From Marsupella aquatica (Eukaryota > Plantae > Marchantiophyta), in assembly GCA_973895155.1 (NCBI GenBank), contig OZ316895.1, positions 23,324,558 to 23,388,557 on the forward strand: 64,000 nt of DNA, written 5' to 3'. The position numbers were made by a program, and so were the translations under genes. Each line of letters opens with the position of its first letter. Positions within the stretch are counted from its first letter, which is position 1. The notes below the pieces were generated by a model. It saw nothing but the letters and a program-made list of their open reading frames with translations. It searched no databases and was not told the origin of the DNA. Positions 7,570 through 63,165 of this stretch are shown here, one piece after another.

Positions 7570-8082
7570 GTGAGTGATCCTATTATTCATGGTCTTTGAG
7601 TTTGGTCTTTGGCTATCAGTGTTTGGTGGACGAGTGGCATTCTTGAGAATCTTATCTCCCGTCTGCTACATTCAAAGGACGCAAATTTCTATAGCTCTCG
7701 CTCTGGTACTTAGTGTTCTGTCCCAGTTCCGATGCTAGGCATTACTTCGTCCGCTTCAGAGAGAATCACGGCTTGGTTGCCCGAAGCTTGTAATCCTCAT
7801 GTGTTTTGACGACGATTTGTGTCATCGGTGGCCAAGCTGTCTCTTAGATTTGTGGGATGCCAAATTTCGTGTGATACAGGTTTGGTAGTTCTGTCGGTAT
7901 AGCTTCTTTTTCTGAGGTAGCATTGCTGTTTCCGCATGAGTGAGCAGCGACTGGCCTCTCGCTCTCGACATTTCTGCATTGTACTTGATTGCGTGCCGAG
8001 GATTGCATGCTGGAATTCAATCGATTCCCCCCCCCCGCCCCCCCCTCCCCCACTGACTCGTGGCTATTGGTGACCTGTGCAG
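7570..8082 (+). other. Probable 5'-UTR intron of the O-methyltransferase gene
   Basis: Donor cattg|gtgagt at 7570; acceptor ctgtgcag| at 8082, 9 nt upstream of ATG 8092. A TATA-like tttaaat lies at ~7167. Confidence 0.5.
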
Positions 8083-8091
8083 AAGAGCATC

Positions 8092-10751
<2,660 letters not shown>

Positions 10752-27809: not shown

Positions 27810-30800
27810 ATGACCAACCTTGAGAAACTCACCTTCCCCGCCCTAGAAATAGATGGCGGCAACTACCTAGAATGGTCCATGAACCTAAAAGAAAACCTAA
27901 CCTCGCTAACCCTACTCCCTGCGATAGGGCTCGCTCAACCCATCCTTGCTAGCGAACCACAACCAGACCCATTAACTAAAGCCAACGAATCTAAGGCTCT
28001 AGTATTCCTGAGACGCCATATCCATAGATTCCTACAAAGACAATACATGCACCTCTCAACCCCCCGTGAACTTTGGACAGCGCTCCAAACCTGATTCGAC
28101 CACCAAAAACTGGTCGAACTGCCTAAAGCCAGGCAAGACTGGCTAAACCTACGAGTCTAGGACTTTACCTCTATTTCAGCCTACAATAGCGAACTCTTTA
28201 GAATAACCTCAACTCTCGCACTATGTGGCGAGCCGGTCACAGACACGGATCTGCTAGAGAAGACCTTGTCGACATTTCATTCATCGAATGTGTGGCTATC
28301 AACACAGTATCGAAACATGAAGTTCGGGCAATACTCCGAGCTCATAGCCCACCTCCTAGTCACTGAAAGAAACCAAGAACTTCTTTTCGTAAACTCTAGA
28401 AAACGACCTGCGGGCACAATGCCCTCAGGACAACAGAATGAAACCCATAACATAGAAAATGATGAACCCTCCACATCGAGGCAAGGCATTAAACGCACTA
28501 AGAATAGCAACCGGAGAAACACCCACAACAGGGGGAGTTTCTATAACCAACGTCCACAATATAACTCCCAATGAACTTTTCGAGGACGTGGAGGACGAGG
28601 CGGACGTAGCGGACGCGGAGGACGCGGCGGTGGAAGAACATATAACAACAACCGCCGAAATGATTGGTCACAATCCCGACCACAACGGGAACGCCCAAAA
28701 TGCCATGCATGTGGCATGACCAACCACCTAGCCAGAAACTGTAGAATCCCACAACACCTTAAAGAGCTATATCAACGATCCCTCAGGGACGGACAAATCT
28801 CTAGGGCACCACCCCATGAAACCCACGGGGCGTTTATGGAGTCTAGCGACCCATTCCAAGACTTTACAGATCTGCCTGCCCAACCAGAGGCACACTTAGT
28901 GGCAAGTAGCCCCACTACACCAGATTTAAATAGTCCAAGCACATGTATTATTGATAGTGCGACCACGCATACTATCCTCCGGGATAGGCACCTTAGAATC
29001 TGCCATTTTTGCCCATAGAATCTGCCATTTTCGCCCCGAACGCAACTCGTAATCTCCTCAGTTTCAGAGATATACGAGCAAATGGACTACACGTCCAAAC
29101 AGGCGATACAAGAGACCAAGAGGTCATCCACTTGGTTGAAAATACCCCTACGGGGAAAATCATTAAAGAAACCCTTTTCTCGTATCCTTGCGGGTTTTAT
29201 GTAACTCATATAGAATGTCTGCATAACAATGTCAACACAAGTGAATTGCATGCGCTCTGGCATGCACGCCTCGGCCACCCCGGCCAATCAATGCTAACCA
29301 AAATAACTAAGAATTCAAGTGGCATTCCAATCAATACACGCCACATTCAAGCTAGCACCCCATGCACTGCATGCTCACGCGGCAAACTAATAACAAGGCC
29401 CACGACATCAAAATTGCCAACCAACATACCCAAATTCTTGGAAATAATCCATGCCGATGTTTGCGGGCCAATTAACCCACCGAGCGGACCATTCCGCTAC
29501 TTTATGGTATTAATCGACGCATCAACTAAATGGTCAAATGTGACACTGCTTTCAACGAGGAACATGGTTATGCCTCGCATTTTGGCGCAAATCTTGCACG
29601 TGAAAGCACAATTCCCAGATCACCCCATTAAGACACTAAGGGTGGACAATGCAGGGGAATTCACATCCGAAACATTTGATGACTTTTGTACATCACTTGG
29701 CATCGACATACAATATCCTATACCTCACGTGCATTTTCAGAACGGATTAGCCGAAGCGGTCATTAAACGCCTTCAGTTAATCGCACGCCCATTACTAATG
29801 CAGTCAAAACTCCCCGTCTCAGCATGGGGACATGCCATATTACAGGCTAATGCATTAATCCAATACCGCCCATCGGCTTTTAACACCTATAGCCCATACC
29901 AAATTGCTAATGGTATAAAACCTGACTTATCCCACCTTCGTTCATTTGGATGTCAAGTAATGGTCCCCATTACTCCACCCAAACAAACCAAGATGGGACC
30001 CCAACGACAGTTGGGGATATACATCGGATTCGACTCACCGTCCATAATCCGATATATGGAGCCTACAACTGACAACATTTTTAAAGCCAAATTTCTAGAT
30101 TGCCATTTTGACGAACACATTTACCCACCATTAATAACCCCTGAACACCCACAACCACCTTTGGAGTGGGAAAGACATTCGCCATTTTGGCAAGACCTTA
30201 GAACGAATCAAGGTGAGAAAGAAGTTCAACGAATTTTGCAACTCCACAAGATTGTGGAAGAACTTCCTGACGCTTTCGTTGACACATCACAATTTACCCG
30301 CTCACATATTCTAGCTGCGAGAGCATCTGCTCGCATCGAATTATCAAGTGAGCCAGCAAGTACATCCCAACCTCGTGCAAAACGAGGTAGACCCTTGGGA
30401 TCAAAAGATAAACAACCACGAAGGCGTGGTTCATCTATACCATCTTCACCTGATGTCGATCATACCGAATCTACATCCCATGAAGAGATCTCTATCCACT
30501 ACGCACACACAGGTGCGATGTGGGATAGAAATACTACTTCAATAGATGATGCTTTTGCATTAATGGTGGCAACACATATCACTGACGATACACCCGAACC
30601 AATATCTATCTTAGAATGCCAAAACAGACCAGATTGGCCTGAATGGCAAAAAGCTATAAATGGAGAATTAGATTCCCTACTCAGCAGACACACTTTTGGC
30701 CCAGTCGAGCCAACACCGCAAGACGTACACCTAATGGCTACAAGTGGACATTTATCCGCAAAAGAAATAATAAAGGCCAAGTTGTACGCTATAAAGCACG

Positions 30801-32355
30801 TCTGGTAGGGAAAGGATTTACACAACAACCGGGAATTCATTACGATGAAACTTACTCACCGGTTATGGATAGCACAACATTTCGATATCTTATCGGATTT
30901 GCCATTTTCCATCAACTACAGATGCGACAACTGGATGTTGCAACTGCATATTTATATGGCACTTTAGACACTTGTCTATACATGCGATCACTTCCTGAGT
31001 TGGAGCAACGACACCGAGCTTTAGCTCAAGGCGCTAAATCGCATATCCCATATTTACATAAGATTATAACACAATTATCTCAAGTTACACCTCATGTGTC
31101 ATCTACACATGTAACTCATAATAACGACACCGCTGTGTCAACCGTACGGAATACTCGCCGCGGACTAGCTATCCGCGTGTTGAAGGCATTATATGGCCTG
31201 AAACAAAGTGGCAGAGTATGGTATCAAAGATTTACTGATGAAATGATTGCCATGGGTTTTTCCCATCATGCCATTACACCATGTTTATTTATTAAACATG
31301 TGGATGATGAATATGTCATCGTTTCTATTTATGTTGATGACTTAAATATATTTGGGACACCCCAACTTACAGAAAATATTATTACCAGTCTTAAATCAAC
31401 ATTTGAGATGAAAGACCTTGGACATACAAACTTTTGCTTAGGCTTACAATTGGAGATCTTACCTACTGGCATGATACTCCACCAAACCACACAAACCGAA
31501 AAGATCCTAAAATAGTTCAATATGAACCTAGCACACCCATTGACGTCACCAATGGTAGTACGTTCATTAGAAAACAATACTGACATTTTTCGCAAGCGCG
31601 AGGAACATGAACCAATATTAGGACCAGAAACTCCTTATCTTTCTGCAATAGGAGCATTAATGTACCTAGCAAATCAGACTAGACCAGACATTGCATTTGC
31701 AGTTAACTTACTAGCCAGACATAGTGCAACTCCCACAGCCAGACACTGGAATGGAGTTAAGCACGTATTTAGATATCTACGTGAAACCACCGATACCGGG
31801 TTATTTTACCCATTCGGTGCAAACCACGAGCTCATAGGATACGCGGATGTCGGATATCTCTCCGACACTGACACTGCAAAATCCCAAACTGGATATGTTT
31901 TTACCATAGGGGGTACCGCTTTTTCTTGGAAAAGCGTGAAACAGACCCTAACAGCAACCTCATCGAATCACTCATAAATCTTAGCTCTACATGAGACTAG
32001 TCGTGAAGCCGTTTGGTTACGATCCTTTATAAATCACATCAACACCAAATGCGGCCTACCACCACTAACGAAGCCTACTAACATTTTTGAGGATAACGTA
32101 ACATGTATACAGCAGATCACAAAAGGATTCATCAAAGGCGATCGCATGAAGCATATAGCTCCGAAGTTTTTCTACACCCACGAATTACATGAAAAAGAGA
32201 TCAACATTTTGCAGATTTCAAGTGCAGACAACTATGCGGATCTCTTCACCAAATCACTATCGCCATCAGTTCATCACCGACACTGCCAGGCGATTGGACT
32301 GCGGAGTGTGCGACGCATGATGACCGCGGAGACTACTGCTCCACATGATACCTGA
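27810..32355 (+). pseudogene. Disrupted gag-pol polyprotein of the copia element
   Basis: Gag start MTNLEKLTFPALEIDGGNYLEW (Bianca-like); zinc knuckle CHACGMTNHLARNC; protease IIDSATTH; integrase LWHARLGH...CTAC, HADVCGP, LRVDNAGEF, QNGLAE; RT YKARLVGKGF, LYGLKQSGR, IYVDDL; RNaseH GYAD...KHI...ADLFTK. In-frame stops at ~28092, ~28157, ~28572, ~31513, ~31975; frameshifts near 29010 and ~30730. Confidence 0.92.
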
Positions 32356-33297: not shown

Positions 33298-33417
33298 ATA
33301 CGGCAATTGCATCGAGAGTAGCATATGGGACTCTGACCTGAAACGTCGGAGTTGGGCATACGGGAATTGCATCAAGAGTAGCATATGGGACTCGGACTTG
33401 AAACGTCGGAGTTGGGC
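33298..33417 (+). repeat. 60-bp tandem duplication spanning the MFS start codon; creates a uORF (33325-33336, MGL*)
   Basis: atacgg(c/g)aattgcatc(g/a)agagtagcatATGggactc(t/g)gac(c/t)tgaaacgtcggagttgggc occurs twice. The first copy has TGA where the second has GGA. Confidence 0.85.
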
Positions 33418-34794
33418 GCTCAGACTACGGTCCAGCAAAGCACATCAGAAGGCGAATCCCAGCTGCCTCAATCCTCACCGGAGAAATGGAACCTCGGAGC
33501 TCTCGAGTCTGGCCCAGATGGCGACGGAGAAAAGGAGAATAATTGGGCTGCTGGAACTCCACCTTCGCCCGAGAAAGATGAGACGACCACGTACCCGGAA
33601 GGGGGCGTGCGCGCATGGGTCGTCGTCCTCGGTTCATGGTGTGGAATTTTCGCTTCTCTGGGTACGGCGAGCACCTTCGGGTCCTTCCAGTCGTATTTCA
33701 TCACGCACCAGCTCTCCTCGTACAACCCCGGGGCGGTAGGCTGGATTTTCAGCCTGTATGCGTTCCTAGCTTTCGCAGGCGGCATTTTTGTTGGGCCAAT
33801 TTTCGATTCGTATGGACCAACGTGGCTCATCCTGGCGGGGAGCGTTGGAGTGTGCTCGTGCATGTTCCTCATAGGGCTTTGCAGACAGTACTGGCAATTT
33901 CTGGTTGTGTTCGGATTCTTGGGAGGCGGGGGTTCGTGTCTCATCTACACCCCCTCGGTTGCAGCTATTGGTCATTACTTCAGGAGAACTCGTGGAAATG
34001 CAATTGGCATTGCATTATCGAGCAGTGCGATTGGAGGCGTGCTCCTTCCTATACTGCTTGAGAAATTAATTCCCAGAGTGGGCTTTGCGTGGAGCACCCG
34101 GATAATCGGCTGCATCTACGTCTGCGTCTGCGTGATTGCCTGCATTCTCGTGCGCTCGCGTCTTCCACGGGCGAAGGACGCGAATGCCTGGCCCGATTAT
34201 AGAATTTTCATGGAGCCGGCTTTTGCCATTACTGTGCTCGCTGTTTATCTGCTTCAGTGGGCGTACTACATTCCTCTTGCCTACATCAGCTCCTACGCGC
34301 TTCACCAGGGCTTCTCCTCCGCCTTCGCTTCTCAGGTCCTCGTGTTGCTGAACTTGGGCTCCATCTTCGGGCGCTGGCTTCCGGGCTTAACTGGTGATAT
34401 AATTGGGCATTACAATAGCGTCATCATCATGACGTTACTCATCATCGCCTCTGTCTTTGGGATCTGGCTACCTTTGGGACAAACGAAAGCAGGACTTGTA
34501 GGCTTTACTGTCACTTTTGGGTTTTCTTCCGGGAGCATCCTTACTCTGACTGCGGCTTGCATTGGGCAGCTGTGCCAGACGAAGAACTATGGACGCTATT
34601 ATGCTACTGCATATACAGTTGCCTCTGTAGGATATTTGACTGGAATTCCGATAGGTGGGGAGCTCGTGGGCATGAGTCACGGAGATTACATGAGCTTGAT
34701 CTACTTCGTTGGAGTTTGCTATGTGGGCGCAGTGCTAGCGCTTGTCGTCGTGAGGATTTTGCAGACGGGGTGGACGATATTGGTGGCTTATTGA
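33385..34794 (+). CDS. Intronless MFS transporter, monocarboxylate-porter/fungal Mch-like family, 469 aa
   Basis: Uninterrupted ORF with ~12 hydrophobic segments. Signature YPEGGVRAWVVVLGSW, FGSFQSYF...QLSSY, IFDSYGP, IGHYFRRTRGNAIGIA, GFAWSTRIIG, GRWLPGLTGDIIG, YGRYYATAY, typical of fungal MCT-like (Mch) permeases. Confidence 0.88.
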   Translation: MGLGLETSELGAQTTVQQSTSEGESQLPQSSPEKWNLGALESGPDGDGEKENNWAAGTPPSPEKDETTTYPEGGVRAWVVVLGSWCGIFASLGTASTFGSFQSYFITHQLSSYNPGAVGWIFSLYAFLAFAGGIFVGPIFDSYGPTWLILAGSVGVCSCMFLIGLCRQYWQFLVVFGFLGGGGSCLIYTPSVAAIGHYFRRTRGNAIGIALSSSAIGGVLLPILLEKLIPRVGFAWSTRIIGCIYVCVCVIACILVRSRLPRAKDANAWPDYRIFMEPAFAITVLAVYLLQWAYYIPLAYISSYALHQGFSSAFASQVLVLLNLGSIFGRWLPGLTGDIIGHYNSVIIMTLLIIASVFGIWLPLGQTKAGLVGFTVTFGFSSGSILTLTAACIGQLCQTKNYGRYYATAYTVASVGYLTGIPIGGELVGMSHGDYMSLIYFVGVCYVGAVLALVVVRILQTGWTILVAY

Positions 34795-39499: not shown

Positions 39500-39945
39500 C
39501 TCGATGGGTTGCTCGTTGTTGCATCCTGACTGAAAAACAGTACACGGGGAGTACAATAGCAGAGCTCAATCTCCATGGATTGCTCGATGTTGCATCCTGA
39601 TTGAAAACAGTACACGGGGAGTACAATATCAGAACTCAATCTCGATGGATTTGCTCCATGTTGCATCCTGATTGAAATTGGGTGAACTCAATCTCGATGC
39701 ATTGCTCGATGTTGCATCATGGTTGAAATTGGGTGAACTCAATCTCGATGCATTGCTCGATGTTGCATCATGGTTGAATTTGGGTGAACTCAATCTCGAT
39801 GCATTGCTCGATGTTGCATCATGGTTGAAATTGGGTGAACTCAATCTCGATGCATTGCTCGATGTTGCATCCTGATTGAAATTGGGTGAACTCAGTCTCG
39901 ATGCATTGCTCGATGTTGCATCCTGATTGAAATTGGGTGAGTACC
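39500..39945. repeat. Minisatellite: two ~68-bp units followed by ~5.5 copies of a 51-bp unit
   Basis: ttgaaattgggtgaactcaatctcgatgcattgctcgatgttgcatc(a/c)tg(g/a) at 39672, 39723, 39774, 39825, 39876 and partially 39927. Related degenerate units extend back to ~38800. Confidence 0.9.
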
Positions 39946-41354
39946 TCGAAAGGCTCCAAAGATTCACCGGCGGACGACCGAAGTAGGGCCGCCCGGACTC
40001 CGGCGGAAAGGTGTGTTCATAGGCATGGGGTGTCAGCACGATGGGCCGGTCTCTTTAAGATCATAGGCTCATCGCCTCTACCCTCGTAAGCCCAGGCAAA
40101 CAGAGCATTTAGCCAAGCTCCTTTTTATACCCTGGCCTCGGGGAGTGGCTGGCCGCCTGTTCTGTGCTTATGGTTTTATCTAGAGAGAGAGCGATCTGAG
40201 GTTCAGCCCAAGGCTAGAGTCCATCGAGGTCAGCGAGACCAGTCATTCTAGCTTTTGGGTACTGTATTTGGGAGGGTTTAGGGCTTGGCCGAGGGACAGA
40301 GACGAGACCAAGAGAGGCACTGCAGAATCAATAGGGCATGTCAAAAGAGGGCCGTTAGTGAGATATAGCCAAAGACAATAAAGTGTTTTTATGACTGGGG
40401 ACAAAACTTTATGGGCTATCTATATACAAGGCCTGTAAACCCTAAACCCTAAACTTTATGGCCATGCTCTACTAGGGGGTCTCAAAGCTTCATCGTTACT
40501 GATTACTTCTGGCCATAAACATTGACTTATGGTCATGGCATATGAATGATAAAAGTCCTGCAAATGTTATGGATCATGAATTTGGTACTAAAACTTAAGG
40601 AGAATCAAATTTTGAGGTTTGAGACCCCCCAGTGTATATATCACACTCATTAGAATAAATGTTCCAAACCCCAAACACCATTCCAAAGGCCAAAGACCCA
40701 TTAAAAGGGAGAAAACAAGGGGGAAACCTAGGAAGACCAAAGAGCTGAAAAGACCCAGACAACTAATCTTGCCAAACTAGAGACACAATCACAAAGGTAA
40801 GACCCAATGGGGTGTCTCAAACCTGCTTTTCCCCCATTTTTTCTGGTCAGCCTCTGTGGGACATTTCCATTTGTGTTCCTGACCAAAACCCAACCTTCCT
40901 CAGACCCAGGGGGTTCTGAGTATGAGATGAATCATAACTCAACATCATTAAATTTTCCGATTGTTCATTTTTTTGAAGGGCACCACTGTGTTTTGCGTGG
41001 ACTGGTGCAGACGCCAGTGCATTGACCACCCAAGTTTTTTTACCCGGCCTATGGTATTGCAGTCACATAAAACCTCTGCAAAACAGAACATTTGAGACCC
41101 CTAATGAAGAAAACAGACTAAAAACCCCCAAAAAGCTAAGAGCGCCTGCATACCAGTCTCATAGAACCTCCCACAACAGAACACTTGAGACCCCTAATAA
41201 ACAAAACAAACCAAAGAACCCAAAAAAGCCAGAGTCCCCTACAGAGGCACAGTTTCAAGACCCTACTCCAGGGATCCCCAACGAGATTACGTTGGCCCAT
41301 GTAACTACAAAATTAAACTGGTGAGACATTCTCTTACCAGCAGGTGGAAGTCGC

Positions 41355-42628: not shown

Positions 42629-45600
42629 TTACAAGTAACCCAGATCCTTCACATGTTTGGTCATTTCGTCCCTCAATGTCGCCACTCCAATCTTATCCCT
42701 TCTTCTCTGAGGATTTCTCCTTTTGACAGCCTTCGCAAGTTCCACTACATGAGGATCCTTCTCGCCAAGCAAAAACTGCTCTACATTACTTTCCATCTGT
42801 AGAAGTCCCTTTTCTATCCTTTGTACACCCCGATGAAGAGCCTTAGAGTGAACACTGATCAATTTCCCACATGCCTTGAGAACTCTGAAGTAATCTTCGT
42901 GAACAGGTATCAACTCTTTACCAGAATCGTGAAAACTGTACCTTACGTACTCATCCCAACCTACATCAAATGCTAGGGGTGGGAGACAGGAGAATCCGGC
43001 TTTCTTCATGTTAGCTATAACATTCGAAGTCTTCCGCCTTTCGATAGACTCTTCATCTAATGCTGGTGCTGGTGGTAGCTCATGATTTTGTGCATGCAAA
43101 ACTTTTTCTTTGCCTTTCTGCTCTTTTCTCTGCTTGCTGGCCTCCACTCTGCTACGCCAATCGGTCCTTGAACTCCCAGCAGACGGAGTATCCGTTTGTA
43201 GACTTCCTCCCCTGTCCAAATTCCCAGGAGTTCCTCCCTTTGGTATTGGTTTTCTACCAGTACCTTCGCCAGGAGTTGCTTCTTCATCTAAATTAACCAC
43301 AGGCTCCTTCTCTACCTGCTCAGGAAATTCATTAGGTGACACCATTGAAAAGTAGACGGACTACGCTTCTCTTGACAAAGGACTGTCGAAATATTGCAGA
43401 TATAGTTTACTTTACACAATATCCTTGCCACTTCTCAAATTAAATACATCAGATGAAAAACTTGGCCAAATTTACAATTCATACGGAAGAGGAGAGACAG
43501 ACCTTCGTCACTGTCTTCTCATATATTCCCCAAAAGCGCTCCACGACAGGCTCCATTCCAGCCTCACATTCATTGCCGGCAAATACCACGTTTTGGCAGT
43601 ATTTCAAATACCTCGACAGCTCCTCATCAAAGTCTGCTAAGCATGATCATAGAAGCACAGAATGAGCGACAAGGACCTCCAATTTCATAACCAGATCACT
43701 GGAGAGATTACTGGAGGCCGCAAATGACCCAAGTCAGAAATCAAGCAAAACCGCCTTCCCGTGCGTGGGTACTCCTCCAGAGTCATTTCTGCGAGTTCAT
43801 TCATAACCAGGACAGCTGAGGAAACAATGCAACCTAACGGATGAACGTCGGAGGTTTGCTTTAATTTTGTAGGATGGTAACGTGAATAATATGTACCCAG
43901 AGACATTGACAGTCGAATTGACATCCAGATCATGTCATGAGGGAGATAAGAGGTACGAACCAGTACTCCAGAGCAATACCTCCTCAGAAAATAGAGATCT
44001 TACAAAGCATGGTAGAAAGGTCAACAAAACTCACCCACAGTACTCGTCGTCTTTCTAGACTCTAGTTTTTCCAGCAGCTCTTTTGTATCGCCGAGCTCCT
44101 TCTGTCGCTCTCGAGATCCCGCACTTTCATTCAGAATCCTCAGCCCACTTACGTCACCAGAGACCCGCACATCCTCACCACCATCCTGACCTTCTCTATC
44201 TTGTCCGCTCGTCGTTCGTGGTCGCTTCCTCTCTCCCAAGACTTTGCCCTCACGAGCAGAAAATTGGTCGTCCCCTGAAGTAGTCACACCAGTTTGACTT
44301 CCATGAATCTTATTCTTTGGATTAGATGATTGTTCCTCATCGATGGAAGCGACTGAGCAGGCCTGTCGTTTTGCCCTGGCCCTGGTGAGGATCGCAGAAG
44401 GGACTTCGAAACGACTGTTGATATCGTTCTCATTGTTTGTCGGTGATTGCCCCTTTCTCCTACGTGCGTTGGTCTCCTCCTGCTGTTGGAGAGGGCGACC
44501 GTCTAGATTGTACAGGACCTTTAGCGTTATGACCAACATTGCCATGACGTACGCTCTGGTGGGAAGAACTGCTCTTCGTGGAGAGAGAAACAGCCCTGAC
44601 GGAGCATACCACTCATAAAGTCGGCAAGCATAAGGTAACAGCTTCTCGACCGGGAGCCCCAAATCTCGCAAAAATAGAGCACATATTGCATGGAAATTGA
44701 CTGGAGGTAGTTGAATGTCGACTCTCTCTGCTACAAACGCAGCTAGAAGCTCCAGAGATCGCGCTCCAGGCACCCTCACAGGTTGAAACATGAGCCTTGG
44801 TTTCATCGGGAAAATCTGCAGCAATGTGTGATGGGAAACTTGTCAAATGAGGTTGATAAGAAACAGAGAAGTTGACATATATAATGGTGAACTAGAAAGC
44901 AACGACGACGTATCTACATGAGATACGTGATGTAGATGACGCCTCGTTGCCTAGTGTAAAATTTGCGAGGGTTAAGGTAAGATGACATGCCTGTTTTTCC
45001 CCAACAGTATTGGGTATGTGATGGGGAGCTGACTTTGAAATCTCCACAAAAGCAGCCAAATAAGGCAACTGTCCACTAATAGCCCAGCTTTTGATGTCCG
45101 TGGGAAGAATTGGCTCCCTTGCAATATAGCAAGAGAGGTAGCTGACAGCAAGCGTCATTGACAAAGGGATTCTTTCTTTCAGTGCACGGAGCCAGACAAA
45201 GGAAAGGTGTCGCCCAAATGATGTTCGTGGCCCTTGTCGATCCTTGCGTTTTTCTTGCTTTCTCACTCGCTTCCTTTTCTGCTTGCCTCCAGCACCATCT
45301 CCATTACTAGGTGCTGCATTACTAGGTGCTTCATTAATAGGTGCTGCATTACTAGGTGCTTCATTAATAGGTGCTTCAGCTGCAGAAGCAATTAGAGACG
45401 ACAGTCAATTTTGAACTGGGCTATAAGAGCACTCAAAAGCGAAAAGGGGGACCACTAAGAACCACAAATTCACTAGCCCCTTTTTTACTATCTAAGGTGA
45501 TTACATTCACTATATCAGTCTAGAAACTTCATGCTCTGTTTCAAAGCTTCTCTCATACTTAATTGAGGCAATTCAACGGAGTCTGGCACCGAGTCCTCTG

Positions 45601-46614
45601 AACACATGTTCACTTGTATCAAAGCTTTCATCGAAAACAAGATACAGAAAAAAAATCCTCAATGCTGGGGTGCGATCGTTATTATCAGGTGTCCTCATAC
45701 CTACCCGTTCAGCAGCTTAAAAAGTACGACACACGCAATTCCCTCGTCACTTAAGACTACTTACACAAAACTTCACTGTACAGAACTTGAGTGCCGAACC
45801 GAGAGCACTAAGCTAACGTAACAGTAACGACAATGGGGAGAAAGGGACTGTACTCATTGTCAACTGGCGACGGCCCTTCTCCCGTGAGACAAAGAGTTGC
45901 TGAAGGTGAAGTGGACATGTTCTAATTACACAAAGGCGGAGAGACTGTTGGACCTGGTGAAACCCGTGTTTGATTTCCTCTCCGAGTCTTCTCTCCATGC
46001 TCTGCAATCATGACAGCCTCCTCTGCCCACGCTTTCTCTAACACCCGCGTGGATGCCACAAACCTCAACCAGATTGGCCCCGCAATGCCGCAGATCAGCG
46101 GAGTCGCCTTAAATTCCTTCACCAAACACTCTAATTGCAATTGCAAAATCTTCTGAACGCCATTTAAGTAACTCTTCCTTATTGTGCTGGCAAGCTCATC
46201 CTTAGACATCCTCGAGGTTGGATCCACTTCCTGACCAAACTGACTGCCCCCGGGCTGAGATAAATCCTCGGTTTTCACACTGAAAGGAGCACTTCCATTG
46301 AATACCTCTGGCGTCAACTCAATGGGATCTTGACGGTCATGAAGGCTGCCAAACAAGCCTGCAAGACCGTCCAGACCATCAACGGGCTCATCTAAAGCAT
46401 TTCCAGACGGCTGTGACTGAGGTTGCTGTCGTTGCTCCGCATTTCTCAAAGTACCCCTCTCCCTGACGAAGGTCGTATTGAATATGTGAGCATCATCCGC
46501 ATCGAAAGCCTCTTCGATGTACTGGTTGGACTGAGCACCACAGTTTCGACAGTACAGACTGGAATCTCCGAGCACCATGTCTGCCATTCCGCAAACCTCA
46601 CAAAACCTGTTCAT
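42629..46614 (-). CDS. TAF1B: TATA-binding protein-associated factor, RNA polymerase I subunit B (TAF1B/RRN7/MEE12-like), ~882 aa
   Basis: Exons 46614-45954, 45379-44991, 44815-44035, 43633-43503, 43315-42629; phases consistent, 2649 nt. N-terminal Zn ribbon CEVC...YCRNCG; IRKSYLNGVQKILQLQLECLV..F.ATPLICGIAGPIWLRFVA; YLSCYIAREPILPTDIKSWAISGQLPYLAAF; LPPVNFHAI; LPTRAYVMAMLVI; YLKYCQNVVFAG. Confidence 0.85.
45303..45377 (-). repeat. Coding 15-bp minisatellite in TAF1B exon 2 (EAPIN/EAPSN/AAPIN/EAPSN/AAPSN)
   Basis: Five tandem g(a/c)agcaccta(t/g)taat units in frame. Confidence 0.85.
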
Positions 46615-48151
46615 TTTTGCAACTTGTTCCTACTCCTTCGAGACAGTGACCCAACTACTGCGCAATACTTCCCCTCTTGCGTCCATCCGTCAGGAGCTCC
46701 TTCGGCAGTATGGGAGAAACCCTCTAATGCTCTCGCTTACCTGCATTGCCCTCGTCGGCTCGTTCGCCTTTTTCTGTTTCTGTTGCACGCAGCAATGGAG
46801 TTGGCCAGGTGGGTGCCCGAGATATGTTGACGGGGACCACCCCTTTCTAAAGAGGATTTCACGTAGGGACCTGCCTGCCGTTGCCCAGCCCTCCCCAGCC
46901 GCCACTCCCTACCGTCATGCGTTTATAACTCTCCGTCCTAGCACCTCGTCCTGCGCTCACTTTGCCGTGCTCGTCGATTCTCCGTGGCGAGCCATAAACC
47001 CTGCTCTGTTTACACTGGACTGAGCTGATGAGCAGAGTAGAGCAGAGTAGACAGCAGCAGTCCGTTCCATTCCCAACTACGACTCGACTGGATTGATCAA
47101 AAGCTTGTGTAACGACATTTTTTCCTTAGGAACTGGAAGAATAATTTTAGATGAGGCAGATAGACATTTGAATATTTGATTGACAATGCTCAGGTCAGAG
47201 AAATTAAGACTTTGCGCCGTCGACAATCAATCGAAGCGGGCCCACCCTTATCATTGACGTATTTGTTCCTGTTGTGCTTCAGTTTTTCAACTCTCAGGAA
47301 AGTTTAAACTGGCAGCAGCATCGTCATCCCCGGCAGGATATCGGCCGTGCCCAGAATTGAAACCCCCTAGTGCAGAGCCCTTCACGGAATCAGTACGCCC
47401 ACCATTGCCACAGGACTCCGGTTCGAGGTACAGAGATGGAACAGCGAAGCACCAGACGTCGACCACTGTGCATGTATCACGAATCCAGCAGATTCAGCAG
47501 AGACATCCAGCACCGAGTAGAGGAGCGGCCAGCCATCTACCTCGTTCATAGACTACAGAGCACCAATCACGGAATACAGGTGCAGGCGGAAGTGCAGTAC
47601 ATTTGGGGCTCTAGGCTGACGTTTTGTGTCGAGATTCATCGTCAAGTTCCACTCAAGGCCATCTTTGGCAGCAACTCAACGAAGCCTAATTTTTCAAGTC
47701 AGGTCTGTGTCTCATCAAAGGCTGAGACCTCACCAATTGTGGCTTATTCGAAGGTTAATTTTGCTCGTCACTAGCCAGAGCACTTCAGTGTATCCGAAAT
47801 CCTCTAATACCTAGGGTAGAGAGGCTGAGAGCTGCAAGGATTTTTTATTGCTTCAGTGTTTTTCAGGAAGAACGATAGACAAAGCACCTTTAACAGATAC
47901 GAAGGGGAAATGTTACAGCATTTTCAGGACGTCTTTTGGGGCACGTGAACCTGGAGCTCCTTGCCAGTCTTGAGCGTGCTCAGCCACAGTCTATTGATCT
48001 GCAGTACTGTTTTATGAACCTCTTGGATCCATACTTCAAACACCATTGTAAAATTCGAGGAAATTCCTCATTTATCAACCTATAATACCGTGCCCAAAAA
48101 CGAAAGCCTTGCAAAGCCAAACACTCCAACTCTGAGTAGAACCAGTTTGAA

Positions 48152-51100: not shown

Positions 51101-54100
51101 ATTGAAGTCCAAGTAACACAGCTCGCTCAGGGGCTACCACCGCCGGGAAAATAAGAGGCCCTAAAGTACTCCAGAACGCGAATGTCGTTCCTGACAATGC
51201 CATCACCCCATAACAAAACTTTCCAGCTACCTGCCATCACATCATGGATCAGGCTTACATCGCCCTTCAACGAACAAGATTTCCTGACTTGACTTGTATT
51301 GTACTGAATATCTGTCCATCACGCAATGTGCTGCTTTCATACCTAAACTCCAGTGAATTTCGAATAGTCACGAAGCTAATGACATGATAATGTAGAAATT
51401 AGAAATAGAGCCCCACAAGCAAACAACGACTGGACTAATGAGACCTCCATCCTTTTTGCGTTAATAAGATGAGTGCACTAATTTACCTTGTCAACAAGAC
51501 GCTGTACAGGTGCCTCCCTTGTTTGCGCATCCTCCACCATCCGTACAATATCACCTAGCACTGTATCACCCCCAGGTCTCGTGGCCTCCACAGTTAACGT
51601 GCCATTGTAATTGATCGTGCCAGCATTGACCTCATCCTGGCAAAGCCAACGACAAAATCAATATTAAGATCACCTTACTGATCACCCGAATCCACATCTT
51701 CATTACAATTGATAAGAGTATGCTAGGCTCACAAAGACGGCAATTTTTTCCTTTTATCACACATGACGAATCATGACTGCAAATTTTTGTCCAATCTAGG
51801 CTTCTCGATCTTGTCTGCTTACCCCTAGCTGTTTTAGCACGGGTAAGGGTTCCCCCGTAAGGCTCGATTCATCCACCGTGCTCTTGCCTCCTTGGACCGT
51901 GCCATCCACAGGTATCCTGTCCTGAATACCATTGAAACATCCAAATCAGTATCTGGATTGTTGAGAACTTTACTTCAAGTCTAAGAACGATTTTGACGTG
52001 TCTGAGCTTATGAGGATAAAAGGTGCGCCATTAAATTCAACTATGAATTCCCTTGAAAAGTTCTCCAAACCATTACAGCTGAAATCAAGTCTTGGCAGAT
52101 AACCCCGTCTACACACTGTTGAGAACCAGTCGGAATAAGGAAAGAAGACAACAAATCAAGCGAATACAGCACAACCAGCTTGATGAGATGCTTACACCAG
52201 GGAGGACCAAGACCGAATCTCCAACAGACAAGCTTTCGCAAGGAATATCCATAGTTCGTGCAGAATCGCCACTACTATTCACTAGCAAACGAGCTGTGGA
52301 TGGTAGGAAATTCAAAAGAGCTGTCATGTCACTACTTGCTTGAAGCTTTGCTCGTTCTTCAATGGCCCTCCCAAGTAAAACAAATGCCAAGAGCATAACT
52401 GGCTCCTCAAAAAAAGCTTGCCAGCCCTGATTTTCCAAGTTGACACCGTAGTCAGCAGCTGCATGATAGGACAAATTAAAAAATACTACAACGACAGGAC
52501 AGAACCAGTTTGTGTTCATTCGAGATCAAATGTGGGGTCAGTATTGTACCAGTTTGGGTAGAAAAGCTGCAGCGGTACTGACAGTAAAGGAAGAAACTGC
52601 ACCCAGACCGACCAAGGTATTCATATTGGGAGATCCTCGCCTGAAACTCTGCCACCCATCCACAAGTAACTTGCGGCCTGGACCACCCAGAGCCACGAGA
52701 GACAAGACCATGTTGAAACTAGTAGAATGAAAGAAGTGGGCCCAGGAGGGAAGCAAATGCATTGCAAGGTGAGACGCATGGCCCACAATACAGACAGTTG
52801 CAAGCGTCCAGGCTACTGCCAATCTTCTCCCTGCTCAAAAGCAAAACAACGCAAACATCAACGGACCTTGAATGAAAGGAATCAATTCGCTTAGATTAAA
52901 TACAGGAGCATCAACTATTTTAAGTCTATACTCGACTGATTCTCTGCCACCTAAAGATCTGGGGCTTGAACAAGAGACCCAATTTTTTTCCACAGATACT
53001 CGAAATGTCACTTAGGGACACGAACAAAGGAATGACAGAGCCTGTTTCTTTTCAGGGCTTCAACACTCACCACTGTCCTTGAGGCGTGCAATCCTTTCCT
53101 CGCGCTTTCTGAGAAATGACGGTGCTCCAGCATTTTCCTTGTCATCTGCAAAATCACATTCCTGTCAGACCAGATCGAGAGGCAGACAGGAGGTATTCTT
53201 TGGGACTCTTTTTAGGCGTATTGAGGGCTACTATTTGTCCGAATTTTTACTGCCTACGAGTGAACTGAAATTTAGCATAACTTGCCCGATACGCTTGGCT
53301 TGTGACACTTTGTAGCAAACATTCTCACAATACTGTCGTGACCGAAACAGAGGTACCAAAGGACACATCAAGTTAAGATAACACAGTTTGTCAAGGTCAA
53401 GCAACACTTTTGTACGTGGAGAGGCCGTAAGAAGGGCTATGAGACAGTCATAGTCCCCTTAATACAGACTTCAATAGTGAGGGAGTCCGTATTCGTAATA
53501 TTCAAAAGTTTTATAGATGTGAAGGCTCCCTGTTGGCAGATTCAAGTATACAGAATCGTCATCAGAAATGACTCAGCTGTAATCTGAGAACAACCTAAGG
53601 TTCCATGGATTGCTGTGCTTCCCTACAGAAAGCTCCCACGATACGGCGGACAGGTTATCTCCGAGATAGAGAAGAGGTTCACCTCGCAGACTGGACTTGA
53701 AGCCGCAGCTTGTCAAGTGTTTGGCCAGCAGCTCTCCAATCTCTTGCTTCAATGTTGCCCGGTCAGTTTGAGCTTCACCATCAAAAGAAAGCTGAACAAA
53801 AGCCGTCTCCGTAGCCAAATTTACGTTGGCTAAAGACACTTGCGGCTGCAAGTGAGATACAAAGCAATGTCCAAGATTAACAGCTTGGAAAATGAATATT
53901 TGGTTGACCACTTGCAAAATCTACGTCATTACTACTTGACAGGTAGTGGGAGCAAAACCTTTTACACAGACAACCAAATCAAGGAAGGTCATCAGTTTGG
54001 TTTCAACTCCAACCACCGTGAAATTTACAAAACTTGATTTCCGAACGCAATTATGCAGCGAGGATACCTGAGACTCCAGAATGCGCTTCACTGAAGCTGA

Positions 54101-55137
54101 GCAACCACCACATGACATGCCCTTCACAATCCAACACACAGGACCACACTCAATTTCAAGAGCCGCGGGAATGATAGCACTTCTGTCGAGTTTTCACTGT
54201 GCACCTGTACAATTCTGAGGTATGTTGGCCAACAAAGTCAATTTACATTCTGGAATTTGAGTTCAAGAGTTTGCAAAAATTACTCTCCTCTATCGAAGAG
54301 ATAACCAAAATAATCATTTGTTAAGCAGAAAGATACCCAAAACTGAAGCCAGGGGATGAGAGGCCACAAGAGGCTTGATTCAATTCTTCATGCAGCCATT
54401 CATTCATTTTCCTGCATGCTTAAATGGGATTCAAAAACTCCAAGTCAAACGTCTCATTCATCTAACCATGTCTCAAATGGAAACCACGCAATGCAGAGGT
54501 TTACCCCAACATCTAGAATGATGACGTCCTCTCCAGATGATCCGACTGGCAGCTCGTCGGACTGCTCTCCCCCAACGGCTTCACCACCCTTGCCACTAGC
54601 TCGAGCCTCAAAGCCATCCCCTCCTCCTCCGCCACCGCCTCCAGCTCCCCGCCCTCCAATCCCCCTCCCTCCACCACCACCATAGCTGGGCGTTGTACTC
54701 GAAAGGCAGGCGAACGATCCACCCGGGAATCTCGTCCGACATTGGCTGCACACAGCCGAATTCTTCACCGCGTCTATCAGGAATCCGAATTGGCCGTTCT
54801 CAGAATTGCTACCGGCTACAAATCGGCTCCCTAGTCCGGTGGACCACCAAACCCTGAACCCTTGCCTTCCTCCCCACACTCCTCCGAGCTTGTTTTCTAC
54901 TCTAATAAGCCCACGATGGTAGTTGATTCCAGGAGCTCGAGCTCTAGCTGCCCCTAAGCGCTCTGCAGACAAGGTGATCGGCACGGCCAAAATTCGGTGC
55001 ATCTTCTGCTGCCTAAATATGAGAGCAGGAGAATTTTGCGCACATGAAGGTGCAGAAGAAGAGGCTGCATGAAAGCCTGCCAAGACGGACGATGCTGTTG
55101 CCAGCTCTGTGGCAGCGGCTCCCTGCAGAGACCTCAT
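48152..55137 (-). CDS. PAA1: Chloroplast copper-transporting P1B-type ATPase PAA1/HMA6, ~1044 aa, 17 exons
   Basis: Exons 55137-54505, 54121-54068, 53845-53683, 53145-53071, 52830-52550, 52426-52196, 51921-51823, 51636-51487, 51230-51084, 50871-50821, 50661-50489, 50167-50035, 49836-49739, 49517-49274, 49144-48941, 48709-48629, 48469-48152 (3135 nt). Transit-peptide-like N-terminus, Gly-rich stretch, [72 protein letters not shown]. The Gly-rich stretch favours PAA1 over PAA2. Confidence 0.93.
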
Positions 55138-59267: not shown

Positions 59268-62200
59268 ATGAGAATGTTGGCCGCGAGGAACATGGGGAAT
59301 TTATCCGGGTTGGTTCTGGGTTTCATTTTTGGTATCCTTGGGCTGCTTGTGACCAGCGCCTCTGCCCGGAATTGCACTGCCAAAAGTTCATTAGTTGGCC
59401 TGTCGTCTGATTTCGTCATGGTACAGCACCAGCTGCGCGGTTCTGTTCTTTTCCGAGATGACTGCACTTTTGAGGTAGCGCGATACTATCTCCTGCATTT
59501 CCCGACCCTCCGTTCCTAGTTAGTTCATGAAATATGTGAATTCTTACTGGTCTGATGGGAACCCCATTGAACTTGAGTTCCCTTTGACGACAAGTTCTCG
59601 TCGAGATGGAAGTTCAAAATATTACGGAAACCCCTACATGTATTGCATTCTGCTCTTCGAATGTGCAGTAGTACCTTGTGCGCTCTAAGGGACAGTATTG
59701 GTCTAGGAACTGGGAAACAAATAGTCAATTGTAGGGGCAAAACAATTATTGGTTTGTGTTGCTCTATCCACGGAGTCTTGTGGGTTTAAGACGAGATTTT
59801 GAAAGAATATCATCAGCAGTGGGAAGAAATTCGGTGATGATTTCTGGCAGTTTAACCGAGAATTGAACTACATATTGTTTATAAACAATGAAATGATATA
59901 GTGTGATTGGAACGCTACTATGAAAACAGGGCCTCTGTGATAATGCAAACTAAAAACAACTTCCCACAATCTCAACGTGAAAGAAGGTTGAGATTCAGAT
60001 ACTATGCAGATGTGGGTTCATCTGGTGAATTTTATCTTGTTTTAGTTTATGTCACGGTCAGTGTGCCACATGTAATTACACTGCTGTACAGTTATACAGA
60101 TTTAGTTACTGACTGTAGTTTTGTCTGCCAAATTCCTATCCGTAACCCAAATCTGCACCGGAACCGTGCAGGTGACAAGATTTGATATGATCGCAGGGAC
60201 TGATGTATACTGGTGGGGGTCTCTTGGTGACGACTTTGATAACATGACCCAGGGGATTTTAATCTCGCCCGATAAACTCAATCAGACTTATCAAAATGTC
60301 ACTATGGAAGTATGTATATCTCTCAAACTGGAACGCTAAAATGTAACTGCCACTTTTTTTGCCTAAGTTTTTGTTTGTATCTATGTAAGGAAAATTATAC
60401 TTCAAAGCTGGCTCTTAGCAGGTCAATTTGACTTTTTAACTTGTGAAGTGCTTTCAGGGACTTAACTATGAGGATTTTTGCTGGACTTGGTATTGATTTT
60501 GCATCGACGTGGTTGCATCCAGGTAACTCTTGGCAGCAACTATACATGGGAGGATTTCAAGGTGCTCAGTGTTTGGGATAGGTATACTGGATCAGACTTT
60601 GGGCACGTTTATCTGGAAGTTCTGGCTTCTGAAGCAGTGGAGACGGGCCCACCACGTCAAAGTGGCTCTGATTTTGGAAGCCCTGCCCCTGCCCCGGGTC
60701 CTGATGTTAGTTCGGGTATACCTGCTGCGAGTGTACCTGCACCCTCAATCCCTGAGAGAGAAATACTTGGACACTCGCAGCTAACTATGTTCGACAATTG
60801 TGTGACCCTGAAAGAAGGACTATTCCGTCTACGGTGGACAGTAAACTGGGACTTGCAAACAGTGGATCTTGGGCTTGAAGGTGCCCTCACTCAATCTCAA
60901 TACATGGCCTTCGGGTGGGCAAAGCCAGGAGTCTCAAGCAAAATCATGCTAAAGTCCGATGTTGTGGTTGCTGGATTTGATGAGAAGGTTAGATGCATTC
61001 TTTGCTCCGTATCCTCTCTAGACTGCAGAGAAATGCATCTTTGAGACTAACCGTGTGGTTTTGCGCATGTTAAAACACCCTATAGACTGCATCCTTATCT
61101 GCTGACAGGGAATTCTGTGCTGAGATCAACCTTTTTGATCTGCCTTAAATGCGATGCATTGAAAATACATATAAGAGGAAATGCTAAGAGAAAGCGAACT
61201 TATTGTGACCCCTGTATCATCCCTTGTAGCAATGTGCTGGGGAAAAGGAGATATAGAACGCGTCCTCAGGTTTTAATCCTATTAACTCAAATCACTTTGC
61301 TGGGTTCTCAGGATGTCCCATATGCGGAGGACTTCTACTTGGGTGCTTATGATGAGTGTAATTGGGACACTAATACCCCGTCTGGAGTGTGTCCCGACTA
61401 TGTCTATACTGGCGGTACAGACAATTCTGCAAACAATAATAAGCTTATGCATGGGCAGCAGATCGATGGTACATGCCTCCTCTGGCTCAGGTCACTTCAT
61501 TTGGTTTATCTGCATCGTGAATCTCCCCTTTAAGCGCCTTTGCTGCTGTGCTTGACCCTCGACTTGCTGGGCTTATATGGCGTAATCTTGACTGAGTAAC
61601 AAACAGTAAGATTTTAACTTTGGTCGTTGGTGCCATTGTCTAGGAATCACTCTCATTCGTTACCGACGACCGCTTGGGAGTATAGATCCCGTGTATGATG
61701 TCTCCATCAATGCCAGTGATATTATGCAAGTCGTCTATGCAATTGGGGGTTTGAAACCTTCTGATTCAAGTAAAGGCAATCGGACTCCTCAAAATCATGG
61801 ACCAAATTATGGTTATCGAAAGATTTCGCTGGCGGACACAGTAGATGAGTGCTTGGGTCCGATGGTGGCTCAAAATGGATATCTAGGCGACGTTGTAGTC
61901 GCTGACAGGGGTACCACGCTAGTGGTTACGACGGACGCACCTTTACACTACCCTGATCATCCCTTTCCCGACAAGGTTTTCTACGTCAATCAGAAAGAGG
62001 CACCTCTTCTGAAGGTGGAAAGGGGTGTTCCAGTTACCTTTTCAGTCCAAGCCGGCCACGGATTTGCTCTCTATATAACCGATAATCCTGTCGGAGGTGC
62101 ATCTAATGCCAATATGAGCGACATAATCTATGCAGGTGGGCCTGAGGCCCATGGAGTACCGGTGATGCCGTACGAACTTACATGGCATCCCAACCGGACT

Positions 62201-63165
62201 ACTCCTGACCTTCTCTACTACCAGGTGCTCGACTAGTTATTGCAAACTTCATCCGAGATTAGTTGGAGAAATTCTTCTTCCGGAGGGCTGTTGTAGACTG
62301 GTTCAAACTCGTGACCATAGTGAAATAGGTTTTGGGAGGGTTCCAGGGTTTTGTTACATTGCTTGAGGTTTGGCATGACCTAAGTTGGTATACTTCGAGG
62401 AGTCGAGTTGGGTCTGATGCGTTGCAAATCTCATCTGCTGCAGACTTTGTAACGGTGTCAGGTCCAAACGTGAGTGGTCTGATCTCCCTGGACACTGACT
62501 TATTGGTTATCCTTGTTTCACAGGATTATTTTATGGAAAAACGAGGATGGAAGGTTCAAGTTGTTGATGGTGGGTTGTCTGACATGTATAATCAAAGCGC
62601 TGTTCTAGCAGATGGCAAGGTATCGTGTTGTTCATTATGAATGTCTTTGCTTTTGGTTGCTCTATAACCTCAGTAGTCATCATTTCAGGACTAAAAAAGT
62701 TAAATTGCTTTATAGGCTCAATGATTCTGGCGTTGTGTGCTGTAAAAGCAAATCTTTCTCGATTTGCATTCATGGGTACTATGTGCTCTTTATGCTCGTA
62801 GTGATTCAATAACTCAGCCAGCTTGTGTTTGTGGAAAACTTGCTTTGTGATGGGGATCACGGGCAAAATTCATCAGTGCAGTTACCAGAGAAAGAGAGCC
62901 TCATCTAGGACAAGATCTTTTACTGGTTACACTGAAAGAATTTAGGGCTTGTTGTAAATAGCCTCCTCTAGGTAGCTGGTGGCTTTGTACTTTCTGCCCC
63001 TTGCCTCAATCGGGGATCCGTGGTTTGGAAGTTATGCATCCATTTTCTTATTGAAATTAATGGCTTGGTGCAGGTGACATTGTTCTGGACAGTCTCAAGT
63101 GGTCGAATATATTTGGCTGTCCGAGGGGGGGTCCAAAGCGGCTATTTGGCTATAGCGTTTGGCAG
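59268..63165 (+). CDS. DM13 and DOMON domain (cytochrome b561-associated) protein, At5g54830-like; 5' part only, gene continues past the window
   Basis: Exons 59268-59474, 60172-60309, 60523-60987, 61312-61468, 61644-62224, 62524-62619, 63074-63165. Signal-peptide-like N-terminus; DM13 motifs MVQHQLRG, DDCTF, FDMIAGTDVYWWG, SVWD..TGSDFGHV; DOMON motifs TMFDNC, FRLRWT, YMAFGWA, DVVVAGF, GVCPD; LKVERGVPVTFSVQAGH; start of a second DOMON (GYLAIAFG). The b561 domain is not within the window. Confidence 0.85.

What the first reader, a model, noticed from the sequence alone, without database searches (positions are those of the whole stretch)
53145..53200. Tandem splice acceptor in PAA1 intron 3 predicts a PCH1-like soluble copper chaperone isoform
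Seen on the minus strand: cctcctgtctgcctctcgatctggtctgacAG-gaatgtgattttgcAG-atgac. The downstream AG (exon from 53145) gives the full ATPase. The upstream AG (exon from 53161, 16 nt earlier) follows the pyrimidine tract. With the phase-1 donor at 53683 it reads ...[13 protein letters not shown], ending right after the HMA (CGGC) domain in a ~285-aa precursor. Known: in Arabidopsis and other land plants, alternative splicing of PAA1 after the HMA exons produces the plastid chaperone PCH1. Inferred: this locus encodes both the transporter and its chaperone through a 16-nt acceptor switch, in what looks like a non-seed plant.
Basis: partly seen in the sequence, partly recalled or inferred. Interest (0 to 1): 0.7.

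Follow-up and report, generated by a model that had tools for sequence, protein, structure and literature searches.

The report
Liverwort chloroplast copper pump gene (PAA1)
This is an ordinary liverwort gene for the chloroplast copper pump PAA1, which likely also makes the already known short copper-carrier protein PCH1, but probably not through the second splice site that was flagged.

Summary
The sequence is as described. A 17-exon PAA1/HMA6 gene (1045 aa, 88% identical to Calypogeia fissa) has two AGs 16 nt apart at the end of intron 3; the upstream one would give 285 aa ending R-G-M-stop. The phenomenon is known (PCH1), and a short isoform is already annotated for Marchantia Mp5g15760. 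The 16-nt switch itself is unsupported. A relative's spliced contigs show only the 53145 junction. None of 152 short-tailed homologues ends in G-M-stop. The stop would lie 83 nt above the next of 13 junctions, a nonsense-mediated-decay signature in moss. The CTGAC before the upstream AG sits 20 nt above 53145, where its branch point is expected. All 28 intron-3 AGs tested would truncate after the HMA domain. Poplar-like loci carry the PCH1 tail in a separate exon inside intron 3, and liverwort tails read E-(T)-V-V/I-stop. A candidate here is 53332 (T-V-L-stop). No RNA of this organism was available. Known system, low interest.

The parts
54505..55137 (-). PAA1 exon 1: predicted transit peptide (first 100 aa: 14 S/T, 17 A, 12 R/K, 3 D/E), poly-Gly stretches at aa 153-157 and 166-173, start of the HMA domain
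54068..54121 (-). exon 2, encodes MSCGGC (aa 213-218), the metal-binding motif of the HMA domain
53683..53845 (-). exon 3, rest of the HMA domain, ends ...GFKSSLR plus one base (phase-1 donor)
   Evidence: 89% identical to Calypogeia fissa
53146..53682 (-). intron 3, 537 nt, the longest of the gene's 16 introns
   Evidence: 537-nt skip in a relative's contig
53325..53338 (-). candidate PCH1 terminal-exon start: in-frame T-V-L-stop codons with an internal CAG; the acceptor at 53332 gives R-V-L-stop (285 aa). Branch-like YTRAY motifs 36-65 nt upstream. Use not shown.
   Evidence: 0.7% of shuffles, pattern chosen afterwards; poor matrix score of -7.1
53162..53168 (-).
53146..53161 (-). 16-nt extension that the upstream acceptor would add (G-M-stop, TGA at 53156-53154)
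   Evidence: no cover in the relative's contigs
53071..53145 (-). exon 4 of the full ATPase ([25 protein letters not shown])
   Evidence: joint 53145-53683 in run X1; same peptide in Calypogeia P0001
48152..52830 (-). exons 5-17: membrane and catalytic part (TGE 501, CPC 615, DKTGT 659, HP 711, GDGVND 872, YN 937, MGISS 966)
   Evidence: 13 of 16 intron lengths seen as joints in run X1

Best explanation
This is a leafy liverwort's PAA1/HMA6 gene, whose exon 4 starts at 53145 to give the 1045-aa copper ATPase, and which likely also makes the known PCH1 chaperone, probably through a short terminal exon inside intron 3 rather than through the AG at 53161. Shown: the gene structure, both reading frames, and use of 53145 in a relative. 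Inferred: exon 3 is sometimes spliced to an intron-3 acceptor followed at once by a stop and a poly(A) site, so the short mRNA has no downstream junction and escapes decay. The best candidate is 53332 (R-V-L-stop, about 25% for that exact site). Inferred: CTGAC at 53168-53164 is the branch point of 53145, which leaves the AG right behind it poorly usable; any 53161 product spliced on through exons 5-17 would be degraded. From the literature: the HMA-only protein hands Cu+ to PAA1 at the chloroplast envelope.
For: 5 of 5 poplar-like loci carry the PCH1 tail (VAGQ[GE]ATEGDIS[MS]-stop) as its own exon about 610-670 nt into intron 3; in the 4 that reach exon 4 it lies about 3 kb before it. Short forms from the same locus or transcript group have tails unrelated to the in-frame exon 4: Marchantia ETVV, Pteridium EEPVGS, Arabidopsis GEVPEDIAGEFAP. 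Riccia P0002 ends ETVI. A high-depth contig in run X1 leaves the 53683 donor into 255+ unrelated letters reading E-V-I-stop. T-V-L-stop with an internal AG lies in window intron 3 and in none of the other 15 introns; T-V-I-stop lies in Sphagnum-like L001 intron 3 (0.7% of shuffles each). Intron 3 is the gene's longest. The DNA assembly holding this window (X2, possibly its source) shows no second copy of exon 3 at 85% or more among its 5 laid records, which argues against a separate chaperone gene. Stops 50 nt or more above a junction trigger decay, and 3'-UTR junctions predict decay targets in moss (PMC6009662, passages).
Against: No RNA shows any intron-3 exon: the relative's contigs give no cover from 53172 to 53645 at 80%, and its closest copy shows no branch at the donor. 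53332 scores -7.1 in the matrix, below all 16 true acceptors (-6.5 to 8.0), while 53161 scores best in the intron. The T-V-[VIL]-stop pattern was chosen after seeing the tails and widened to L to fit the window; L003 has A-V-I instead. The E-V-I tail of X1 has no match in the window above chance. No AATAAA lies in introns 3-4. 5 of 16 true acceptors here lack a YTRAY within 60 nt, so its absence above 53161 is weak evidence.
Confidence: 0.45

Rival explanations
1. One reading: 53161 is a regulated alternative acceptor that makes PCH1 (…SSLRGM-stop). To be stable the transcript would have to end in exon 4 or intron 4, or resist decay.
For: CAG|G after a pyrimidine-rich stretch (19 of 26 Y); best matrix score in intron 3. 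The true acceptor of intron 9 has the same CTGACAG|G ending. Tails of 1-3 aa occur in annotated short proteins (G, GN, GKS). Precedent for a shifted exon-4 acceptor: the Sphagnum chaperone-only duplicate ends in a frameshifted exon 4, GGEGWSESESRSA (L006; P0225), matching AGs 5 and 8 nt inside exon 4 of Sphagnum-like PAA1.
Against: Not seen in the relative's contigs, where it cannot be the majority form of the closest copy; in Arabidopsis the short mRNA is about 5-fold more abundant than the long one (PMC4622755, passage). 0 of 152 short tails equal G-M. Stop lies 83 nt above the next of 13 junctions. No YTRAY 18-70 nt above 53161. No upstream YAG in 6 of 6 distant loci.
Confidence: 0.2
2. This locus makes only the ATPase; PCH1 comes from a separate duplicated gene, or is absent. 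Both 53161 and 53332 are chance sites.
For: Separate HMA-only genes exist in Physcomitrium (P0106, P0155), Sphagnum (P0159; L006 has no ATPase exons in 5 kb downstream), Ceratopteris (P0177) and Riccia (P0002). In X1 the E-V-I contig and the exon-4 contig both begin at 53752 by depth arithmetic, so they likely come from different gene copies. The window lacks any E-x-V-[VIL]-stop acceptor. Reviews report duplication as the other route to PCH1 (PMC4709454, PMC4622755).
Against: No second exon-3 copy at 85% or more in X2, though served contigs can be missing. The E-V-I contig may belong to a second, more distant species or copy in X1 (exon 6 at 88% versus 96%).
Confidence: 0.25
3. PCH1 arises by read-through of the exon-3 donor with polyadenylation in intron 3, giving a 319-aa protein with a 36-aa tail.
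For: The frame stays open for 36 codons. Retained-intron transcripts resist decay in moss (PMC6009662).
Against: No cover of intron 3 in X1. The liverwort short forms on record start their tail with E, which needs a splice, since read-through gives G.
Confidence: 0.1

Closest known systems
Arabidopsis PAA1/HMA6 (At4g33520, locus name recalled) and its splice form PCH1 (Blaby-Haas et al. 2014, PMC4273408; not read, known here only through reviews PMC4709454, PMC4622755, PMC12722077)
   Same: Transit peptide, poly-Gly, one CGGC HMA domain, then the P1B ATPase; a short form ends just after the HMA domain (Arabidopsis isoform 2, 237 aa).
   Different: The angiosperm tail is 11-13 aa and, in the poplar-like loci examined, lies in a separate intron-3 exon. 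The window has no such tail, and no short transcript is shown here.
Marchantia polymorpha Mp5g15760 (1024 aa and 277 aa)
   Same: Liverwort orthologue, 72% identical, with an annotated HMA-only isoform from the same locus tag.
   Different: Its tail is E-T-V-V; the window offers V-L (53332) or G-M (53161). Its genomic structure could not be fetched.
Calypogeia fissa PAA1-type proteins P0001 and P0125
   Same: 88% identical over 1046 aligned positions, same exon-4 peptide.
   Different: No short isoform among the 2 cluster members.
Sphagnum and Physcomitrium chaperone-only duplicates (P0159, P0225, P0106; locus L006)
   Same: HMA-only proteins ending shortly after GFKSTVR or GFNSSLR.
   Different: Separate genes; the Sphagnum tail is a frameshifted exon-4 remnant.

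Membership tests
P1B-1 Cu+-ATPase | MxCxxC HMA domain, CPC, DKTGT, TGE, HP, GDGxND, YN and MxxSS motifs (motif list recalled) | tested here: met
   all found in the 1045-aa model; the 88%-identical P0001 passes Pfam HMA, E1-E2 and Hydrolase and TIGR01511 cut-offs
PAA1/HMA6 clade | poly-glycine stretch after the transit peptide (PMC4709454) | tested here: met
   G5 at aa 153 and G8 at aa 166
PAA1/HMA6 clade | closest named relatives are PAA1, with the same exon 2-5 layout | tested here: met
   named hits are PAA1 or unnamed bryophyte orthologues; same boundaries in L001-L009; no tree against PAA2 was built
PAA1/HMA6 clade | located in the chloroplast inner envelope | not testable with these tools
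   N-terminal composition fits a transit peptide
PCH1 | product is transit peptide plus complete HMA domain, ending before the first membrane helix | tested here: met
   true of the 53161 and 53332 products and of all 28 intron-3 AGs; in Marchantia P0127 the Pfam HMA match ends at aa 269, before the tail
PCH1 | a stable short transcript is made from the PAA1 locus (or a duplicate) | tested here: inconclusive
   no RNA holder listed; the relative shows 53145 and an unmatched E-V-I exon, not 53161
PCH1 | C-terminal tail like those of known short forms | tested here: inconclusive
   G-M: 0 of 152. V-L resembles ETVV, ETVI and EVI, but the pattern is post hoc; tails vary widely between lineages
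PCH1 | protein accumulates and delivers Cu+ to PAA1, not PAA2 | not testable with these tools
   shown for Arabidopsis according to PMC4709454

The most novel reading that the evidence does not exclude
This liverwort lineage lost the E-(T)-V-V/I terminal exon that other liverworts use and re-invented PCH1 through a 16-nt upstream acceptor that competes with the ATPase acceptor at a shared branch region, with transcripts ending in intron 4 or escaping decay. Plants would then have kept the chaperone through at least three separate splice solutions at one intron.
Probability: 0.17. Interest if true: 0.4.

Novelty: new member of a known kind. Interest (0 to 1): 0.15.

Why it matters
The PAA1/PCH1 pair is established, is described as conserved in green eukaryotes, and is already annotated in Marchantia, so one more liverwort locus adds little. 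What may interest a copper or splicing specialist is the comparison: the chaperone's last exon differs by lineage (intron-3 exon in poplar-like loci, E-T-V-V/I in thalloid liverworts, frameshifted exon 4 in Sphagnum duplicates), which suggests that the truncation is kept while its route turns over. One RT-PCR would place this species.

Tried and rejected
No RNA holder was listed for the stretch; this is no evidence on expression. No whole genome is held, so a paralogue search rests on laid contigs only. The E-V-I tail of X1 was sought in the window: 0 matches at 3 mismatches; best local score 24 versus 23.5 +/- 2.6 for shuffles, and 21.5 versus 20.4 +/- 3.1 at the tandem acceptor; homology to either site rejected. 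I first took V-F-stop in L006 for a homologue of V-I-stop in L001; pairwise alignment placed it elsewhere (p about 0.05 and 0.24), it lies only 29 nt from the donor, and annotated Sphagnum proteins use the exon-4 remnant; rejected. Window intron 3 does not align with L001 intron 3 above chance. Upstream AAGs exist in L001 (-19, -23) and L003 (-22, giving G-stop) in purine-rich context; they differ between two close loci and were not counted as conservation. L010-L020 (11 of 20 loci) were weak partial matches and were not analysed. Of 239 stored proteins, 47 lacked the anchor motif and 40 had tails over 45 aa; they were dropped before the 152 count, and the 152 include redundant cluster members and genomic read-throughs. 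A search of 50% representatives with exon 1 gave 3 hits and no leafy-liverwort short isoform. The Atlas did not hold the neighbouring MFS protein. Earlier scan notes held nothing. Paper searches for Mp5g15760 and for liverwort plus 'plastid copper chaperone' gave 0; the primary paper and its supplements were not available and may already describe the splice route in bryophytes. No fold was run, since both tails leave the HMA domain unchanged.

Full report
Observation. The minus strand reads as quoted, with AGs that would start an exon at 53161 and at 53145. A 17-exon model from ATG 55137 to stop 48152 has GT-AG at all 16 introns and is open for 1045 aa. It is 88% identical to two Calypogeia fissa proteins and 72% to Marchantia, so the source is a leafy liverwort. 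It has the poly-Gly, MSCGGC, CPC, DKTGT, YN and MGISS motifs of PAA1.

How special is the upstream AG. 7 of 16 introns in this gene have another AG within 30 nt of the acceptor. Because intron 3 follows the HMA domain, all 28 AGs tested in it give an HMA-only product, 4 with tails of 3 aa or less: 53583 DYS, 53332 VL, 53264 VHS, 53161 GM. A matrix built from the gene's 15 other acceptors ranks 53161 first of 29 intron-3 AGs (0.9) and above 53145 (-2.6); true sites range from -6.5 to 8.0, so the matrix is crude. The CTGAC just before the upstream AG is the only YTRAY within 60 nt of 53145, with its A at -20; 53161 has none 18-70 nt upstream. That an AG a few bases behind a branch point is usually skipped is my own knowledge. 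The same CTGACAG ending is a true acceptor in intron 9, and 5 of 16 acceptors lack a YTRAY, so this argument is moderate.

RNA. No listed holder is on record as RNA. Run X1 holds spliced contigs of related copies: 13 of the 16 intron lengths appear as joints in the rows shown. At intron 3 the only joint is 53145-53683 (depth 31.9), and by depth arithmetic nothing covers 53146-53161. A second contig, about depth 100 by the same arithmetic, leaves the donor into 255+ letters that lie nowhere on the stretch and read E-V-I-stop. Both contigs appear to begin at 53752, so they likely come from different gene copies; X1 holds copies about 96% and 88% identical in exon 6. Contigs drop minor junctions, and X1 is another species, so this shows only that 53161 is not the main form there.

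How others make the short form. In 5 of 5 poplar-like loci the PCH1 tail is a separate exon about 610-670 nt into intron 3, with its own acceptor and stop; 79 of 152 short tails fit a loose angiosperm-type pattern. Marchantia Mp5g15760 has a 277-aa isoform ending ETVV; a Riccia fluitans gene of 133 aa ends ETVI; Pteridium has assembled isoforms of 988 and 231 aa; Arabidopsis isoform 2 is 237 aa. Physcomitrium, Sphagnum and Ceratopteris have HMA-only genes; the Sphagnum one (L006, P0225) ends in a frameshifted exon 4, the one precedent here for a shifted acceptor. No tail equals G-M; two start GM as genomic read-through. None of the 6 loci that reach exon 4 has a YAG within 60 nt above it.

Decay. 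With 53161 the stop lies 83 nt above the exon 4/5 junction, with 13 junctions downstream. PMC6009662 (passages) gives the 50-nt rule and finds 3'-UTR junctions a strong predictor of decay in moss. PMC4622755 (passages) reports the Arabidopsis short mRNA about 5-fold above the long one. A terminal exon inside intron 3 fits an abundant stable mRNA; a plain acceptor shift does not, unless the transcript ends in intron 4.

A rival site. At 53338-53325 intron 3 holds in-frame T-V-L-stop with an internal CAG; the acceptor at 53332 gives R-V-L-stop, also 285 aa, below four YTRAY motifs and above an A-richer 180 nt. The motif occurs in 0.7% of shuffles, in none of the other 15 introns, and as T-V-I-stop in Sphagnum-like L001 (A-V-I in L003). 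Against it: the pattern is post hoc, the matrix score is -7.1, no AATAAA follows, X1 gives no cover there, and Sphagnum has a separate chaperone gene. I give this exact site about 25%.

One gene or two. Among the 5 records of X2 laid at 85%, only the contig that holds the whole stretch covers exon 3; X2 may be the window's source, and served contigs can be incomplete. This favours an in-locus route modestly.

Verdict. The primary paper was not available. Searches (listings only) turned up no liverwort PCH1 study. New member of a known kind; interest 0.15.

Noticed in passing
window 33382-34794 (+): Intronless 470-codon open frame for an MFS transporter (Pfam MFS_1 above cut-off; weak monocarboxylate-transporter matches below cut-off). 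Its start motif PEGG..AW.V looks like fungal Mch-type transporters (recalled), so a transfer from a fungus is possible; origin not tested.
   Followed up: partly
window 28161-32355 (+): Ty1/copia-type retrotransposon, broken by stops and a frame change (gag-pre-integrase, integrase and SH3 matches); lies just upstream of the MFS gene.
   Followed up: partly
window 44021-46629 (-): Rrn7/TAF1B-like gene directly downstream of PAA1 (Pfam Rrn7_cyclin_C).
   Followed up: partly
window 60472-62236 (+) and 8074-10751 (+): At5g54830-like DM13/DOMON gene, and an O-methyltransferase (Methyltransf_3) gene.
   Followed up: partly
window 39629-40054 (-): Tandem repeat of about 51 nt, seen as a 17-residue repeat in an open frame.
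   Followed up: no
window 53723-53939, run X1 record 4: A contig of depth 46.9 runs from exon 3 into intron-2-like sequence, suggesting a retained intron 2 or another start in a relative. The Riccia short gene P0002 is annotated without exon 2 and its cysteines.
   Followed up: no
L001 and L003 5596-5604; L006 5163-5340: Sphagnum-like PAA1 has AGs 5 and 8 nt inside exon 4 that shift the frame; the chaperone-only duplicate L006 has fixed that shifted frame as its tail.
   Followed up: partly
L004 1147, L005 2486, L007 3556, L008 5813, L009 2470: The poplar-like PCH1 exon has its own tandem acceptors 6 nt apart, matching database tails VAGQGATEGDISM and GQGATEGDISM.
   Followed up: yes
window 52033-52082 and 52830-52833: A 48-nt deletion in intron 6 in DNA runs X4 and X5; a NAGNAG acceptor at exon 5.
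   Followed up: no
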